64,000 nucleotides of DNA from Candidatus Babeliales bacterium (GCA_963722255.1 CAVRJO010000001.1:544001-608000), one strand, 5' to 3'. Shown: positions 27,956-38,753, counted from the first letter of the stretch. The notes: generated by a model not told the origin, from the letters alone. Program-made: numbers and translations.

Positions 27956-28098
27956 ACAGTATTTTACCTGTCTAAAATACTGTAGACAAAAGGACACAAA
28001 CGGTTCCGTTTGATCCCTCTCCCGCTCCAATATGGCCCACTTCAACATTAATGCTTACAGCATTAAGTTTTCGGGACCACGTGTAGCTACCGGAAAGA
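27956..28098 (-). ncRNA. Structured repeat / candidate ncRNA, copy B
   Basis: Homologous to 33337-33478 and 38613-38753 with compensatory base changes. Confidence 0.65.
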
Positions 28099-28115
28099 TT
28101 TTATACATTTACGAT

Positions 28116-28211
28116 TGTCATCCAGAGACCTTCACCTAAGTGGAGGTCGTGCGTGTCCGCCAAAGCTTGCCAAGCCGGAAGGCCTGGATAAGCGTCGGCT
28201 GGGGGATCCAG
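28116..28211 (+). repeat. Composite RPE/REP-like palindromic repeat
   Basis: TGTCATCCAGAGA...GGCTGGGGGATCCAG; homologous to the reverse complement of 38368-38444; inner part matches the tRNA-Ser(GCT) trailer. Confidence 0.75.
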
Positions 28212-28224
28212 TAATAAAAATGAA

Positions 28225-28390
28225 AAGTCCTTTGAGCGCAACCGTTGAAGGATTTACAGCACGTAAGTGCGCGTGTCCGTCGAAGCCCTGGCGAAGTCGG
28301 AAGAATCCGCCTTTTGCGCGACAGAGATTCCTAAGATACTTCTTAGGTGCCCTTTTGGTTTTAGGTATTTTTGACATAAAAATACCTAAT
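28225..28390 (+). repeat. Divergent copy (D) of the structured repeat
   Basis: GCGCAA/TTGCGC outer stem, CCTAAGA/TCTTAGG hairpin followed by TGCCCTTTTG, terminal GGTATTTTT-GACAT-AAAAATACC hairpin. Confidence 0.45.
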
Positions 28391-28560
28391 TTAAAAAAAT
28401 GTATTAAAGGCATTGGGCTTACAATACCTTTATAAATAAAATATCTTTGTCTAAATATTTTGAATGCCCAAAATATTGTATTAAAAATATCTTGACAAAC
28501 AAGCAAGCATTGTTTACATCTAGACTCGTCATAAAATCAACACCCATAGCAGGAGCAACA

Positions 28561-29622
28561 ATGTTTATTCTTATACTTTTCATTTCATGTTTTAATCTTC
28601 AGGCATTGCATACTTATGATACAACCATTGCACCCCGAAAAACTATAACCGCATTAGAAGTTGCTGCAAATAATCAAGGCCAACTAGTGTACGAAAATAA
28701 TTTGCCTATCCCCAATCCAAAATTTGTTCTTGAGCTTGCAAATGCACGCGTTTATGAAGATGGCCACATTATTACATACGATAATTTTCTTTTAGAAGAT
28801 ACCGTCATTAAGTATCCGGAAAAACCACTATCAGAGTATCATATGCTCCACCGCAATGAACTTCCCAAAGCACACCATTTTAAAGGTAAATTAGCTATCA
28901 TCGCCTCTCCAGGTAGCCAATGCTATTATCATTGGATGTTTCAGATTTTACCCCGCTTAAAAATTCTTAAAGACCTACATATCGAGTATGATGCATTGTA
29001 TATTGAGCCTCTCAGCCATCCATTTCAGCTTGAAACTCTTGCAAAAATTGGAATTGATAACAAAAAAATAGTTTTTGCAAAACCAAATTCACAAATCATT
29101 GCTGATGTTTTACTTGTTCCTTCAATTGCTATTAAAGAACCTTCTTTTGCTTTTCCACAGTGGGTTATTGATTTCTTACGATCAGAATTTCTTGATGCAA
29201 CAAATCTCGAAAAATACAAAAACTCTAAAAAAATTTATATTTCTCGTAGCAAAGCTGCATCACGAAGAATTGTTAATGAAGGTGAAGTTATAAAATTCTT
29301 AGAATCACAAGAATTTACTACTGTACATCTTGAAGACTATTCTTTACTCGAACAAGCAGCCATTATTGCATCAGCCAATACTATTATAAGTCCGCATGGT
29401 TCCGGCCTTTCAAATCTTGTTTTTGCAGATAAAGGAGCACAGGTTATTGAAATTTTTAATCAAGAAGGTTTTAATAAACTATTTTATAATTTATCTCAAT
29501 CGGCTGAACTGCAACATCATGCATTAATTTGTACAGATGAAGAACTTACTTGGGAACAACAACAAAATGAAGATATAGTTGTAGATATACCCAGATTAAA
29601 ATCTTTAATTAATTCAATTTAA
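28561..29622 (+). CDS. Glycosyltransferase family 61 (DUF563) protein
   Basis: YYHWMFQILPRL, IYISRSKAASRRIVNE, IISPHGSGLSN; signal-like N-terminus after AGGAG. Confidence 0.88.
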   Translation: MFILILFISCFNLQALHTYDTTIAPRKTITALEVAANNQGQLVYENNLPIPNPKFVLELANARVYEDGHIITYDNFLLEDTVIKYPEKPLSEYHMLHRNELPKAHHFKGKLAIIASPGSQCYYHWMFQILPRLKILKDLHIEYDALYIEPLSHPFQLETLAKIGIDNKKIVFAKPNSQIIADVLLVPSIAIKEPSFAFPQWVIDFLRSEFLDATNLEKYKNSKKIYISRSKAASRRIVNEGEVIKFLESQEFTTVHLEDYSLLEQAAIIASANTIISPHGSGLSNLVFADKGAQVIEIFNQEGFNKLFYNLSQSAELQHHALICTDEELTWEQQQNEDIVVDIPRLKSLINSI

Positions 29623-29675
29623 TAGAACTACATAAGAACAAAAAACCCGATTCATCCTCAAAAAGATTGCGTAAT

Positions 29676-30131
29676 CTACTTTTTTTCTTCGAGTATAAAT
29701 TGAGATACATTAGGTGCGATGCCTGGTTTTATGCTTATAGTATAATCCTTTTCTTTTTCTTTGGTGGGATTAATTATTATAGGTTCGCTAAAAGCAATAT
29801 ATGGCTGGTTTTGCTTAAAAATTCCTATTGCTGTGAATGAATTATCTTCATCATTACCATAATTGCCTATTTCAAAAAATTTTGTCGTTGAACTATTTGA
29901 ATTTGATTTTGGCTCAATGAGAAGTCCAACACTATTAGCTCCCGAAATAGCTTTAAAAAATGGTGATGGCGAATCATAACCAGCAAAACTTGCTCTTACC
30001 ATTATCGGATACTCCGTTGTGTTATAAATTTTATGTTTTTTAAACCATGCCGGCAGAGTATATGTGGTAGTTGCTGGTAAAATATCAACCATTGAGATCA
30101 AAATAAGTATAAATAATAGTATTTTTTTCAT
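29676..30131 (-). CDS. Secreted hypothetical protein
   Basis: AGGAGAGG RBS, signal-like MKKILLFILIL. Confidence 0.72.
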   Translation of the reverse strand: MKKILLFILILISMVDILPATTTYTLPAWFKKHKIYNTTEYPIMVRASFAGYDSPSPFFKAISGANSVGLLIEPKSNSNSSTTKFFEIGNYGNDEDNSFTAIGIFKQNQPYIAFSEPIIINPTKEKEKDYTISIKPGIAPNVSQFILEEKK

Positions 30132-30267
30132 TAACCTCTCCTTGAAAGAACAAAATTATATTATATATATATAATTGTAATAAATTTATAATAAAGATAT
30201 CAATAGTTTTCATTCAGCTCTATGAATCAAACAAAAAATATTGCCAAAGAAAAAATCTATCGAACTT

Positions 30268-37036: not shown

Positions 37037-37047
37037 GAAGATTAATC

Positions 37048-37806
37048 TTATTTTCTTATAAACCATGGAATAAAAACAGATGTTTTTCGTTTATATTCTT
37101 GATATTCAGAACTGTTTTCCATCGCTTTTTCAACCCACGGAATGCCCGTTACAAAAACAAGTAAACAAGTAATCGTAACTGGTGCAATAACAGCAGTTAA
37201 ACCATACGGCACTATTGATGCTATGCAAAAAATTCCCCACCACATCATTGATTCGCCAAAATAGTTAGGATGACGAGAATACCGCCAAAGGCCAAAACGC
37301 ATTACGCGGCCTTTATTGAGCGCATTATGCATAAACTTGTATAATTGGTAATCACTGATCGATTCAAAACAAAAACCAAAAAGCCATAATGCTAAACCAA
37401 AAAAATCAAAAAAAGATAAACCGCGCTGAATGTTATAGGTGTTAACTAAAATCGCGGGATAACTCATGATTGCAATCAAGAGCGTTTGCCCAAAAACCCA
37501 GAGTATGTTGATAAAAAGAGCTTTCAATCCTTGCCATTTCCATGCAGCAAATCGTGGATCTTTTCCGGTATAGCGAATATATACATAGGAAATAAGTCGT
37601 AGCGCCCAAAGCACGATAAGAGATGTTATCAGCATTTGTTGCGGCAAAAAAGAGCTCATTTTAAAAAATGTAAAAAGAGCTACCAGCATAACGCCACCGC
37701 CCCATGTAAAATTTGCAATACTTGTATCGCCTTTGAACTGCACTAATGCAACCATACACGATAAATATATAAAGAGTAAACTTACTCCACAAATAAGTTC
37801 AGACAT
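37048..37806 (-). CDS. DUF1295 / steroid 5-alpha-reductase-like membrane protein
   Basis: WALRL, D.RF, ESISDYQL..F, GLWRYSRHPNYFGE..WWG, GIP..E, Y.EY.R.TS.FIPW. Confidence 0.9.
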   Translation of the reverse strand: MSELICGVSLLFIYLSCMVALVQFKGDTSIANFTWGGGVMLVALFTFFKMSSFLPQQMLITSLIVLWALRLISYVYIRYTGKDPRFAAWKWQGLKALFINILWVFGQTLLIAIMSYPAILVNTYNIQRGLSFFDFFGLALWLFGFCFESISDYQLYKFMHNALNKGRVMRFGLWRYSRHPNYFGESMMWWGIFCIASIVPYGLTAVIAPVTITCLLVFVTGIPWVEKAMENSSEYQEYKRKTSVFIPWFIRK

Positions 37807-37969
37807 ACATTCCTTTATAGTATAGATGATTATTTATATATAGTAGCTTTATAAAATTGGTATTAATTTATCAATTATTTTAAATAGAGAAACATTTTTC
37901 ATTTGAGTTAATTATGATACAATTAGCATGTAATAAATGACACGAATATTTTATTATTAGAAAGGTCAT

Positions 37970-38347
37970 GTGTTTATTGTAAAAAAAATTTTCCCAGTTA
38001 TTATGGCAATTTCATTTTATGTATTGTGTATGGCGCATCAAGCAACAGCCGTTTTTACTTTGTCCGATGTTACAGACATTTTGTGTTTTGAAGTTACAAT
38101 TTATGATAGCAAAACTCAAGAATCTGTAAGGCCAGTACGTAATACACGGTTTAGATTGCCCGGTATTAAATTAATTAGAAATGAAACCGCTTTATGGGAT
38201 AATAGAAAAATACAGAGCCATTGTGTAATTAGTATAATGCCCATAGAAATTCTTACGATCTGTTTAGGTATAAAATATGTTCCTAAACTCTATCAACTCA
38301 TCAGGGATATTAGATACACGAATGCATCAGTTGTAAATAGTAATTAA
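37970..38347 (+). CDS. Hypothetical exported/membrane protein
   Basis: 125-aa ORF from GTG, AAGG RBS, signal-like N-terminus. Confidence 0.5.
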   Translation: MFIVKKIFPVIMAISFYVLCMAHQATAVFTLSDVTDILCFEVTIYDSKTQESVRPVRNTRFRLPGIKLIRNETALWDNRKIQSHCVISIMPIEILTICLGIKYVPKLYQLIRDIRYTNASVVNSN

Positions 38348-38367
38348 TGTAGAAAAGATTTTATTAT

Positions 38368-38444
38368 CTGGATCCCCCAGCCGTCGCACGAGGCTATGGC
38401 GGGCACGGCACGAATTTCACTACGTGAAAATTCTCTGGATGACA
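38368..38444 (-). repeat. Composite RPE/REP-like palindromic repeat
   Basis: Reverse complement TGTCATCCAGAGA...CGGCTGGGGGATCCAG matches 28116-28211. Confidence 0.75.
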
Positions 38445-38535
38445 ATTCTACATTCATTTATTTCTTTTAAATTCGCTTAAATATTTACCAGCTTTATTTT
38501 AACATAATTTATCGAGTTCACGTTTTATAAATATA

Positions 38536-38590
38536 TTCCGGTAATGCATCGTGCACCCGAAATTTTGATGCGATAGCGCCAACAATAAAA
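38536..38590 (+). repeat. 5'-half partial copy of the structured repeat
   Basis: TTCCGGTA...CGTGCACCCGAAATTTTGATGCG...CAACAAT matches the starts of copies A and C. Confidence 0.65.
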
Positions 38591-38612
38591 TTGTTAATAT
38601 ATAAATAAAAAG

Positions 38613-38753
38613 TTTCCGGTAGCACGTCGTGCACCCGAAATCATAAGGCTGCAAAGCCGCAATGATGTGTGGTGCATATACGTGCGGAAAAGGGGTCAAA
38701 CGGAACTGTTTGTGCCCTTTTGTCTGCAGTATTTTGGGCACGCAAAATACTGC
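38613..38753 (+). ncRNA. Structured repeat / candidate ncRNA, copy C
   Basis: GCACGT/ACGTGC, GTGCACC/GGTGCAT, CAAACGG/CTGTTTG, GCAGTATTTTG/CAAAATACTGC. Confidence 0.65.

What the first reader, a model, noticed from the sequence alone, without database searches (positions are those of the whole stretch)
27956..38753. Unrecognised ~140-nt structured RNA/ssDNA motif in three full copies with compensatory covariation
Seen: copies at 33337-33478 (+), 38613-38753 (+) and 27956-28098 (-), plus a 5' half at 38536-38590 and a divergent copy at about 28225-28390. Consensus is CCGGUA-GC..-C-GUGnnCC-(C/U)GRA-[variable hairpin]-GGnnCAU-AU-..GC-GG, then RRRAGGG-CAAACG(GAAC)YGUUUG-UG-YCCUUUU, then a RCAGUAUUUUR/YAAAAUACUGY hairpin. 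Stems covary: GUGAACC/GGUUCAU, GUGGUCC/GGGCCAU, GUGCACC/GGUGCAU; the terminal stem changes G-C to A-U at both ends in copy B. G-U pairs fall on one strand, indicating a single-stranded polarity. Copies A and B point toward convergent gene ends, so they are not 5'-UTR riboswitches. Inference: a trans-acting ncRNA, a ribozyme, or a hairpin-based mobile/targeted element; I cannot match it to any family I know.
Basis: partly seen in the sequence, partly recalled or inferred. Interest (0 to 1): 0.85.

Follow-up and report, generated by a model that had tools for sequence, protein, structure and literature searches.

The report
Multi-copy pseudoknotted small RNA genes in Babeliales
The repeated ~140-base motif is real: it looks like a family of small, tightly folded non-coding RNA genes, each with its own promoter-like box and a knotted 3' end, scattered like mobile DNA through the genomes of some intracellular Babeliales bacteria, and it matches no described RNA family.

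Summary
Observation confirmed and extended. The three window copies belong to a family ("type A") with 15 full copies in this 1.62 Mb genome. Stems covary strongly: 95% of cells are paired, 19 of 39 pairs change on both sides, and 0 of 500 shuffles reach this. No Rfam family matches.

- **Type B.** The "divergent copy" at 28225-28390 is a distinct RNA on the opposite strand, with 7 copies. It is often transcribed divergently from type A, across a palindromic TTTATAAA box.
- **Shared 3' module.** Both types end in hairpin P4 plus an H-type pseudoknot: UGYCC pairs with the GGRCA loop of the last hairpin. In a MAFFT-only alignment it is 90% paired, with 4 of 5 pairs covarying.
- **Strand.** G-U outnumbers A-C by about 3-4.5 to 1, which indicates one functional strand.
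- **Distribution.** The module occurs in 25 of 151 sampled genomes of the phylum, all in one order. It is multi-copy, has no linked protein gene, and is not syntenic between congeners.

Best reading: dispersed, probably mobile genes for stable small RNAs with a pseudoknot 3' cap. Their cellular role is unknown. The sequence look-up of earlier scan notes found no match.

The parts
33330..33335 (+). -10-like TATAAA box upstream of copy A
   Evidence: Conserved TTTATAAA(A/T)-type box ends 5-9 nt before UCCGG in most of the 33 aligned upstream regions from 6 genomes. Not picked up by the generic sigma-70 scan, which needs a -35.
33341..33478 (+). Type A RNA, copy A. 5' rod P1-P3 at 33341-33417; P4 hairpin at 33422-33437; pseudoknot strand UGCCC at 33438-33442; U-rich linker at 33443-33450; P5 hairpin at 33451-33478 with loop GGGCA at 33461-33465.
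   Evidence: R1 E 4.5e-39; fold -56.2 kcal/mol, z -4.79; covariation; pseudoknot.
38526..38586 (+). Truncated type A copy: -10-like box plus the 5' ~50 nt, up to P3. It breaks off just before the next full copy.
   Evidence: nhmmer hit on model positions 8-85, E 2.4e-11; alignment.
38600..38605 (+). -10-like TATAAA box upstream of copy B
38615..38753 (+). Type A RNA, copy B
   Evidence: R1 E 3.6e-36; fold z -5.46.
27956..28094 (-). Type A RNA, copy C
   Evidence: R1 E 4.5e-41; fold z -5.51, and the sense strand is 14 kcal/mol more stable than the antisense.
28100..28105 (-). -10-like TATAAA box of copy C, preceded by TG
27905..27943 (-). Extra P5-type hairpin module directly downstream of copy C
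   Evidence: R2 hit on model positions 28-66, E 8.7e-5; sequence.
28226..28389 (+). Type B RNA, the divergent partner of copy C. It has its own rod domain (GAGCGCAACCGUUGAAGG ... GCCUUUUGCGCGAC), a P4 hairpin, and the same pseudoknot-type 3' module.
   Evidence: R2 E 1.1e-8 at 28320-28388; alignment of partners; consensus fold with 12 of 42 pairs covarying in 6 sequences.
28401..28436 (+). Second P5-like hairpin after type B
   Evidence: Conserved in 4 of 5 aligned partner loci. Its antisense strand (-) is flagged terminator-like.
28115..28215 (.). G+C-rich repeat inserted between the A and B genes of this pair. It is absent from the two tight pairs.
   Evidence: Alignment of partner loci. The same element recurs at C1 697 kb, upstream of an IS200 copy on C2, and in G001.

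Best explanation
The motif is a gene for a small structured non-coding RNA ('type A'). The conserved core is about 140 nt; the transcript may run somewhat further.

**Family.** Type A belongs to a Babeliales-restricted superfamily. Its members (type A, type B and others) have different rod-like 5' domains but share one 3' module. That module is hairpin P4, followed directly by a 4-5 bp helix between UGYCC and the GGRCA loop of the last hairpin P5. Together these make an H-type pseudoknot in which P4, S1 and S2 could stack coaxially. The U-rich linker could lie in the groove of the A-U-rich P5 stem.

**Transcription (inferred).** Transcription starts at about UCCGG, from a -10-like TATAAA box. 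In the canonical arrangement, types A and B are transcribed divergently from one palindromic TTTATAAA box.

**Role of the pseudoknot (inferred).** It acts as a 3' cap or handle that stabilises the RNA against 3' exonucleases, binds a protein, or both.

**Spread.** The loci are multi-copy, sometimes nearly identical, modularly recombined and not syntenic between species. They therefore spread or turn over like mobile DNA; the mechanism is unknown.

**Shown:** the copies, the covariation, the pseudoknot covariation, the strand bias, the distribution, and the lack of a linked gene.
**Inferred:** transcription, the start site, the capping function and mobility.
For: - **Copies.** There are 15 full copies in G000, all between ORFs.
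- **Covariation.** RNAalifold finds 21 of 39 pairs compensatory. On the G000-only MAFFT alignment, 95.0% of cells are paired against 81.1% in shuffles, 19 of 39 pairs change on both sides, and 0 of 500 shuffles reach the observed value on four of five measures (18 of 500 on the fifth). Slid controls give 34-48% paired.
- **Pseudoknot.** It was not part of any covariance model. It is 90.2% paired with 4 of 5 pairs changed on both sides in a MAFFT alignment of 41 modules from 10 genomes. It is 87.6% paired with 4 of 5 pairs covarying in 37 relatives.
- **Strand bias.** G-U to A-C counts are 34:9, 48:16 and 64:14. The sense fold is more stable than the antisense fold in 3 of 3 window copies.
- **Promoter-like box.** By eye, it is kept at the same place in most of 33 upstream regions from 6 genomes (a per-position base table only). 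In the two tight A/B pairs the model starts are 18 and 19 nt apart around a palindromic TTTATAAA. The commonest spacing of divergent start sites at symmetric -10 elements is 18 bp (bioRxiv 10.1101/2020.01.31.928960, passages read).
- **Divergent pairs.** They dominate in other genomes, for example 5 pairs among 13 hits in G117.
- **Distribution.** R1 hits 9 of 61 relatives. The 3' module R2 hits 25 of 151 genomes and 17 of 96 genera, all of one order.
- **Turnover.** All 3 strong G001 copies checked sit at sites that are empty or rearranged in G000. Five G000 copies share an identical 5' domain joined to different 3' modules. Many hits lie at contig ends in fragmented assemblies.
Against: - **No expression data.** No sequencing run could be listed, so transcription, ends and strand remain inferred.
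- **Weak promoter evidence.** The generic promoter scan finds no -35/-10 pair upstream of the copies, and its total count equals the shuffle expectation (46 found, 45.6 expected). A TA-rich box in a 34% G+C genome is weak evidence on its own.
- **No clear terminator.** In G000, P5 is followed by an A-run, not a U-tract. P4 plus UGUCCUUUUG is flagged terminator-like, so the RNA might end before P5.
- **Covariation has another explanation.** Among paralogous copies it could reflect selection on a mobile 'master' lineage, as ssDNA or RNA, rather than on each locus.
- **No partner or target.** No protein partner, target or phenotype is known.
- **Thin triplex idea.** It rests on only two sequence classes.
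Confidence: 0.5

Rival explanations
1. It is a purely DNA-level mobile element (MITE/REPIN-like). An A/B pair is a ~300-400 bp element whose inverted ends are the P4-P5 modules. The hairpins are single-stranded DNA structures read by a transposase supplied in trans, for example an IS200-type Y1/HUH enzyme. Any RNA made from it is incidental.
For: - The element has an inverted-pair architecture with outward-facing shared modules.
- It is multi-copy, non-syntenic and found at contig ends.
- 6 of 15 copies lie in convergent intergenic regions.
- Solo P5-type palindromes are scattered in the genome.
- Y1_Tnp genes occur in 7 of the 9 R1-positive genomes, against 18 of the 52 R1-negative ones.
- G-T wobble and a strand bias also fit single-strand transposition.
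- An earlier scan note, not checked here, reported mobile G+C-rich hairpin repeats in another Babeliales genome.
Against: - The ends of the IS200 copies in G000 carry unrelated G+C-rich hairpins.
- Only 1 of 6 loci with a Y1 gene has the RNA nearby, and there it lies in the flank. No Y1 gene in G000 lies within 1 kb of a module.
- No parent IS with these ends was found in G000.
- 11 of 15 type A copies are solo yet full-length and well folded.
- The multi-helix rod, the covarying pseudoknot and a conserved -10-like box at a fixed distance exceed what known transposases require.
- No target-site duplication or sharp ends could be defined.
- Genome size confounds the Y1 association.
Confidence: 0.25
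2. It is a cis-acting transcript element: a leader, attenuator or 3'-UTR stabiliser/terminator for the neighbouring gene, not an independent RNA.
For: - 6 of 15 copies have a co-directional ORF 120-234 nt downstream.
- Three consecutive cassettes at C1 674-677 kb each have a copy upstream of a paralogous secreted-protein gene.
- P4 plus the U-run is scored terminator-like.
Against: - 9 of 15 copies face a convergent ORF.
- The 49 flanking ORFs tested are functionally unrelated.
- In the cassette cluster, a separate terminator-like hairpin and a conserved promoter/RBS lie between the RNA and the gene.
- Divergent A/B pairs with a shared central box do not fit a UTR element.
Confidence: 0.1
3. 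It is a self-cleaving ribozyme or other catalytic RNA carried by a selfish repeat.
For: It is multi-copy, has a pseudoknotted compact fold, and has conserved unpaired purine-rich loops. Several ribozyme classes are known mainly from repeats (recalled knowledge).
Against: - No match to any ribozyme family in Rfam, even at E<=10.
- The topology is a simple H-type pseudoknot without the nested helices of HDV-like folds.
- No conserved candidate cleavage site was identified.
Confidence: 0.05

Closest known systems
Transcribed, structured intergenic repeats / sRNA-generating MITEs: Correia/NEMIS in Neisseria, ERIC, RUP, BOX, and QMITEs of Coxiella (PMC5896051, seen only as search listing and start of abstract). 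The other names are recalled.
   Same: Short, non-coding, multi-copy and intergenic, with an inverted-repeat architecture. Can carry promoters and give rise to small RNAs. Modular make-up. Occur in host-associated bacteria.
   Different: Here each half is a multi-helix RNA with a covarying pseudoknot and a clear strand bias. The two halves are different RNAs (A and B). Solo halves are complete. No TIR/TSD or parent IS could be shown.
REP/REPIN elements mobilised by RAYT (Y1/HUH) transposases
   Same: Inverted doublets of hairpin-forming units, strand-specific single-strand structures, and Y1-family genes present in the carrier genomes.
   Different: Units are about 140 nt rather than 20-40 nt. 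No Y1 gene is flanked by them. They carry a promoter-like box and a pseudoknot.
Triple-helix H-type pseudoknots and 3'-end stabilising triplexes: telomerase RNA pseudoknot, SAM-II and preQ1-II riboswitches, ENE elements of MALAT1/PAN (recalled knowledge)
   Same: H-type topology with a U-rich loop 1 next to an A-U-rich stem 2. Loop 1 changes together with stem 2: UUUUG with AAAAU, UUGUA/G with AAUAY. The module sits at the 3' end of the RNA.
   Different: No sequence or Rfam similarity. Not upstream of a regulated gene. The triplex is untested and rests on two sequence classes.
Transposon-end guide RNAs: TnpB omega-RNA of IS200/IS605, bridge RNA of IS110 (recalled knowledge)
   Same: Structured RNAs of about 150-200 nt, containing pseudoknots, encoded by mobile DNA and read towards the element's edge.
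   Different: The TnpB domain PF07282 is found in 0 of 5 carrier genomes. IS110 PF01548 is absent from G000, G001 and G032. In G004 the modules lie outside the 1.26 kb IS110 unit. No variable guide segment is seen.
Bidirectional promoters with a shared symmetric -10 element (bioRxiv 10.1101/2020.01.31.928960, passages read)
   Same: A palindromic TTTATAAA lies between two outward-facing genes whose starts are 18-19 nt apart in the tight pairs.
   Different: Start sites are not mapped here. Other pairs are 20-320 nt apart because of insertions.

Membership tests
Any Rfam 15 family | Covariance-model score at or above the gathering threshold | tested here: not met
   Window scan at gathering score finds only 4 tRNAs. 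A scan of 27500-39200 at E<=10 gives no credible hit on any copy; the only overlap is a SNORA15 match at 23 bits, E 1.4, against a gathering score of 47.
MITE | Terminal inverted repeats shared with a parent IS | tested here: not met
   A/B pairs have inverted 3' modules. However, BLAST, nhmmer and CM searches of G000 find these modules only in the RNA family and in solo hairpins, never flanking a transposase gene.
MITE | Target-site duplication and sharp ends | tested here: inconclusive
   Homology between copies starts about 10-15 nt before UCCGG and ends about 5-15 nt after P5, but varies by pair. Filled and empty sites in G001 versus G000 are too diverged to define the junctions.
REP/REPIN-RAYT | A Y1 (RAYT) gene flanked by the repeats; short 20-40 nt palindromic units | tested here: not met
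   G000 has 11 Y1_Tnp matches, none within 1 kb of an R2 module. Only 1 of 6 loci containing a Y1 gene has R1 hits, and they lie in the flank. The units are about 140 nt.
IS200/IS605 TnpB omega-RNA | TnpB gene in the genome, with the RNA overlapping its 3' end | tested here: not met
   PF07282 is found in 0 of 5 carrier genomes, while the control genomes ring in 8 of 14.
IS110 bridge RNA | IS110-family recombinase adjacent, with the RNA inside the element | tested here: not met
   PF01548 is absent from G000, G001 and G032. In G004 the R2 modules lie outside or at the edge of the conserved 1.26 kb IS unit in the 3 of 5 copies that have one nearby.
Intrinsic (Rho-independent) terminator | G+C-rich stem immediately followed by a U-tract | tested here: inconclusive
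   P5 is A-U-rich and followed by an A-run. P4 followed by UGUCCUUUUG is flagged once by the consensus scan, but 5 nt separate the stem from the U-run. Canonical terminators do exist elsewhere in this genome.
H-type pseudoknot with major-groove triplex | Two covarying helices in H topology | tested here: met
   S1 is 90.2% paired with 4 of 5 pairs covarying; S2 is 87.9% paired with 7 of 10 pairs covarying.
H-type pseudoknot with major-groove triplex | Loop-1 bases forming base triples with stem 2 | not testable with these tools
   Only a correlation of two classes: the third base of L1 is U when the stem has A, and G when the stem has U. There is no exception among about 42 modules read by eye. 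Structure probing or a solved structure is needed.
Riboswitch / cis-regulatory leader | Consistent position upstream of functionally related genes | tested here: not met
   Only 6 of 15 copies have a co-directional downstream ORF. The Pfam content of 49 flanking ORFs is unrelated.

The most novel reading that the evidence does not exclude
A new kind of bacterial selfish element made only of RNA genes. It is a compact cassette in which one symmetric promoter drives two different outward-facing small RNAs, each capped by a triple-helix-type pseudoknot. The RNAs themselves, rather than an encoded protein, mediate the cassette's persistence or spread, for example as stable intermediates or as guides or handles for a host enzyme. 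On this reading the pseudoknot cap would be a bacterial counterpart of the eukaryotic/viral triple-helix 3'-end stabilisers.
Probability: 0.12. Interest if true: 0.9.

Novelty: new variant of a known kind. Interest (0 to 1): 0.62.

Why it matters
**What is new.** Dependentiae/Babeliales are obligate intracellular parasites of protists. Almost all are known only from metagenomes, and four literature searches here found no paper describing their non-coding RNAs. This finding gives them at least two new structured RNA families with an unusually well-supported pseudoknot.

**Why the organisation is interesting.** Two RNA genes transcribed divergently from one symmetric -10 box, copied around the genome, link small-RNA birth, bidirectional promoters and mobile DNA.

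**If the pseudoknot is a 3'-end cap.** It would be a compact, transferable RNA-stabilising module from bacteria.

**If the element moves as DNA.** It would be an unusually elaborate structured repeat and a useful marker for Babeliales genome dynamics.

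Tried and rejected
- **Rfam.** Gathering score and E<=10: nothing on the copies.
- **Other collections.** blastn, distant mode, against phage and plasmid collections: no match. Viral contig pattern scan: 0 matches. Metagenome scan: 1 short contig.
- **Sequencing runs.** No run and no RNA holder was listed, so expression could not be examined and read laying was not used.
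- **Linked protein.** Pfam on 49 ORFs next to the 15 copies found no transposase, integrase, RT or nuclease, and no recurrent family. 20 of the 49 matched no family.
- **Multi-copy proteins of G000.** These are IS3, IS4/5, IS630-like, IS481-like, group II intron RT, IS200 Y1, and AAA/PD-(D/E)XK families. None is adjacent to the RNAs.
- **IS200 ends.** Compared with the motif and found unrelated.
- **TnpB and IS110.** Both hypotheses rejected.
- **Coding reading.** Rejected. The 141-aa ORF at 33162-33587 overlaps copy A, but the copies differ by 1-3 nt indels and by compensatory changes rather than synonymous ones.
- **Generic pseudoknot regex scan of the genome.** Uninformative: 138 hits against 110 in a reversed-sequence control. 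Only the family's own modules stood out.
- **Generic sigma-70 scan.** Uninformative: 46 found against 45.6 expected.
- **Hammerhead-like reading.** Considering CGAAA ... UGAUG as a hammerhead core was dropped, because the order of the elements is wrong and UGAUG is base-paired in P3.
- **Earlier scan notes.** The look-up by sequence found nothing.

Full report
**1.

The three copies read as described and align over about 140 nt. Each folds far better than its shuffles (z -4.8 to -5.5), and the given strand is more stable than its complement (-56.2 vs -48.5, -61.4 vs -55.0, -52.9 vs -38.8 kcal/mol).

The window is G000:C1:544001-608000, part of a 1.62 Mb, 34% G+C genome in two contigs. Iterated nhmmer finds 15 full-length copies plus partial ones. 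A covariance model built from the 15 (R1) recovers them at E 4e-24 to 4.5e-41. All 15 lie between ORFs.

RNAalifold predicts 39 pairs, 21 with compensatory changes. On the MAFFT alignment of the G000 copies alone:
- 95.0% of cells pair, against 81.1% in shuffles.
- 19 of 39 pairs change on both sides.
- 0 of 500 shuffles reach the observed value on four of five measures (18 of 500 on the fifth).
- Sliding the partners by 1-3 columns gives 34-48% paired.

These are paralogous copies within one genome, so the shuffle control overstates independence. The slid control and the relatives described in section 4 do not share that weakness.

Three details in the finding needed correcting:
- The 'divergent copy' at 28225-28390 is on the + strand and is a different RNA.
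- The G-C to A-U change of the terminal stem is in the 27956 copy.
- Copy B is followed by a co-directional ORF (38888-40171, a DAO-family oxidoreductase), not a convergent one.

**2. No known family matches**

Rfam 15 gives only four tRNAs in the window at gathering score. At E<=10 nothing credible falls on the copies. Phage and plasmid collections give no blastn match.

Four literature searches on Dependentiae or Babeliales with non-coding RNA, repeats or intergenic elements returned nothing about such RNAs. The Chromulinavorax genome paper (PMC6561590) has no occurrence of hairpin, palindrom-, terminator, intergenic, promoter or transpos-.

**3. Anatomy**

*Type A.* It starts with a conserved UCCGGUAG. 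A rod of three covarying helices follows (P1, P2, P3), interrupted by purine-rich internal loops, then a purine-rich junction (GCGGGAGAG). After that come a short hairpin P4, the pentamer UGYCC, a U-rich stretch, and a terminal A-U-rich hairpin P5 whose loop begins GGRCA.

*The pseudoknot.* The pentamer and the P5 loop covary:
- UGCCC/GGGCA, UGUCC/GGACA and UGCUC/GGGUA occur in G000.
- CGCCC/GGGCG, (G)CUCC/GGAG(A) and UGUA/UACA occur in relatives.

This pairing was in none of my models. In a plain MAFFT alignment of 41 3' modules from 10 genomes it is 90.2% paired, and 4 of 5 pairs change on both sides (for example C-G 21 and U-A 18 at the middle pair). In the 37 model-aligned relatives it is 87.6% paired with 4 of 5 pairs covarying. 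In the G000 copies it is 91.4% paired.

The topology is an H-type pseudoknot that abuts P4, so P4, S1 and S2 could stack coaxially.

*A possible triplex.* The linker tracks the 3' strand of P5: UUUUG goes with AAAAU, and UUGUA/G goes with AAUAY. I saw no exception among about 42 modules read by eye. This is what parallel U.A-U and G.U-A triples would give (recalled triplex rules). However, it amounts to two sequence classes that could simply be linked blocks, so I treat it as a hypothesis.

*Strand.* Within the helices, G-U outnumbers A-C 34:9, 48:16 and 64:14 in three alignments. One strand carries the structure.

**4. A second RNA and a paired organisation**

Upstream of four type A copies (C1 249, 422, 572 and 697 kb), on the other strand, lies a second conserved RNA, type B. 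Its sequence runs GAGCGCAACCGUUGAAGG ... GCCUUUUGCGCGAC, followed by its own P4 and the same pseudoknot module. In the window it occupies 28226-28389 (+).

Model R2, built from the 3' module only, finds 27 matches in G000 at E<=0.01: the 15 type A copies, 7 type B copies and 5 partial or solo hairpins. Type B has the same architecture and covaries (12 of 42 pairs in 6 sequences). It is conserved in another genus, as locus L033 of G004 shows.

In relatives the divergent pair, with 5' ends facing, is the rule:
- G117 has 5 pairs among 13 R2 hits.
- G032 has at least 7 pairs.
- No tail-to-tail pair was seen in the listed hits.

**5. Promoter-like box**

All but a few copies have TTTATAAA(A/T) or a close variant ending 5-9 nt before UCCGG, in G000 and in G001, G003, G004, G032 and G117 (33 upstream regions).

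In the two tight pairs of G000 the model starts are 18 and 19 nt apart, with a palindromic TTTATAAA in the middle. G117 shows the same layout. This fits the symmetric bidirectional promoters described by Warman and colleagues, where divergent start sites flank overlapping -10 elements and are most often 18 bp apart (10.1101/2020.01.31.928960, passages read).

Against this: no -35 is conserved, the generic scan is at chance level, and the genome is A+T-rich. Transcription is therefore inferred, not shown. No sequencing run could be listed.

**6. Where the RNA ends is open**

In G000, P5 is followed by UAAUAAAAAAA, not a U-tract.

In other genera further modules follow P5. These include small G+C-rich hairpins preceded by a tetramer complementary to their own loop, for example UGCC-UUGGCC-GGCAUGA-GGCCAA. 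That is a second, compact pseudoknot of the same design, and it also appears to covary between copies (by eye; not counted).

Canonical terminators (G+C stem plus U-run) do exist in this genome, some 30-70 nt downstream of copies.

**7. Distribution and dynamics**

- R1 hits 9 of 61 related genomes, in 6 of 44 genera. Hits are strong in G001 (same genus), G003 and G004 (same family) and G032, and weaker in G020, G037, G039 and G013.
- R2 hits 25 of 151 genomes sampled from the phylum, in 17 of 96 genera. All are labelled same order, with up to 29 matches per genome.
- A strict pattern scan of 185,579 species genomes returned 6 loci, all in one record titled 'Candidatus Babeliales bacterium'. 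Its contig length equals that of G003.
- Viral contigs gave 0 hits and metagenome contigs gave 1.

None of the three strong G001 copies lies at the position of a G000 copy:
- At one site, between a conserved gene and a tRNA, G000 has 143 nt where G001 has 734 nt of stacked repeats including the RNA.
- At another, G000 lacks the RNA upstream of the orthologous gene.
- The third is rearranged.

Within G000, five copies share an identical 75 nt 5' domain joined to different 3' modules, which indicates recombination between copies. A truncated copy abuts copy B. 6 of 15 copies sit in convergent intergenic regions, 8 in tandem ones and 1 in a divergent one. Many hits in fragmented assemblies are at contig ends.

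**8. No partner gene**

- The 49 flanking ORFs include Lon, TLC transporters, MsrAB, ribosomal protein L19, trigger factor and ankyrin proteins, among others. None is a transposase, integrase, RT or nuclease, and none recurs.
- G000 is rich in IS elements, group II introns and IS200-type Y1 transposases, but the IS200 ends are unrelated hairpins.
- Only one of six loci containing a Y1 gene has an RNA nearby, and it lies in the flank.
- Y1 genes occur in 7 of the 9 R1-positive genomes and in 18 of the 52 negative ones.
- The TnpB domain is absent from 5 of 5 carriers. IS110 is absent from G000, G001 and G032.

**9. Interpretation**

Four features together point to selection on an RNA made from one strand: a fixed promoter-like box, a multi-helix fold with strand-specific G-U pairs, a covarying pseudoknot shared by several different 5' domains, and the divergent two-gene layout around a symmetric box.

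The copy number, near-identity of some copies, modular shuffling, lack of synteny and assembly breaks show that the loci multiply or turn over like mobile DNA.

I therefore read type A, together with type B, as dispersed small-RNA genes with a common pseudoknot 3' cap or handle that spread by an unknown route (confidence 0.5). The main rival is a DNA-level MITE/REPIN-like element whose hairpins serve a trans-acting transposase (0.25). A cis-regulatory element (0.1) and a ribozyme (0.05) are less likely. What the RNAs do in the cell remains unknown.

**10. Novelty**

This is a new RNA family, in fact a small superfamily, in a barely studied phylum. The nearest known kind is the transcribed structured intergenic repeat. 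The pseudoknot cap, the A/B pairing and the shared symmetric promoter are not features I can find described for those elements.

Noticed in passing
window 28115-28215; also G000 C1 ~697.4 kb, upstream of the IS200 copy at C2 651 kb, and G001 locus L052:1330-1470: A separate G+C-rich repeat (GTCATCCAGAG ... GGCTGGGGGATCCAGTAATAAAA, about 100-200 nt with a variable middle) is inserted exactly between the A and B genes in two of the four G000 pairs. It splits the shared TTTATAAA box, and a TA-rich box remains on each side. It may be the kind of mobile G+C-rich hairpin repeat noted earlier in another Babeliales genome (e1-2614757).
   Followed up: partly
G000 C1 673.6-677.4 kb (loci L024:5601-9369): Array of small paralogous proteins with signal-peptide-like N-termini (139-292 aa, no Pfam family). 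Three consecutive genes are each preceded by a type A copy, a terminator-like hairpin, and a conserved promoter/RBS block (TAGTGTATACTGGGTAAT ... ATGGAGTTTTTATG).
   Followed up: partly
G004 loci L098-L102: Five near-identical 1.26 kb IS110-family elements. Three have an R2-type RNA module within about 230 nt of an end, and one module abuts the IS end. IS110 may therefore target or prefer these structured repeats.
   Followed up: partly
G000 C1 795232-795599 and 797383-797822 (- strand): ARAGORN predicts two tmRNA genes 2 kb apart with different tag peptides (ANFGLAAPALALS and a 30-residue tag). One may be a false positive or belong to a mobile element.
   Followed up: no
G003 C1 1253004-1254495: Three identical IS200-type Y1 transposase genes in tandem at 566 bp spacing, an unusual head-to-tail array.
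   Followed up: no
G000 C1 670119-670164; window 28452-28487; other solo hairpins: Solo copies of the P5-type hairpin occur without the rest of the RNA. One is a perfect 22 bp palindrome that includes the flanking TAATAAA. The terminal hairpin may therefore be an independently spreading palindromic module.
   Followed up: partly
G000 genome-wide: For a 1.6 Mb intracellular genome, G000 is rich in repeats: IS3, IS4/5, IS630-like and IS481-like elements, 3-4 group II introns, 11 Y1_Tnp matches, and multi-copy AAA-ATPase/PD-(D/E)XK (8 copies) and AAA_14/DUF4143 (4 copies) genes.
   Followed up: no
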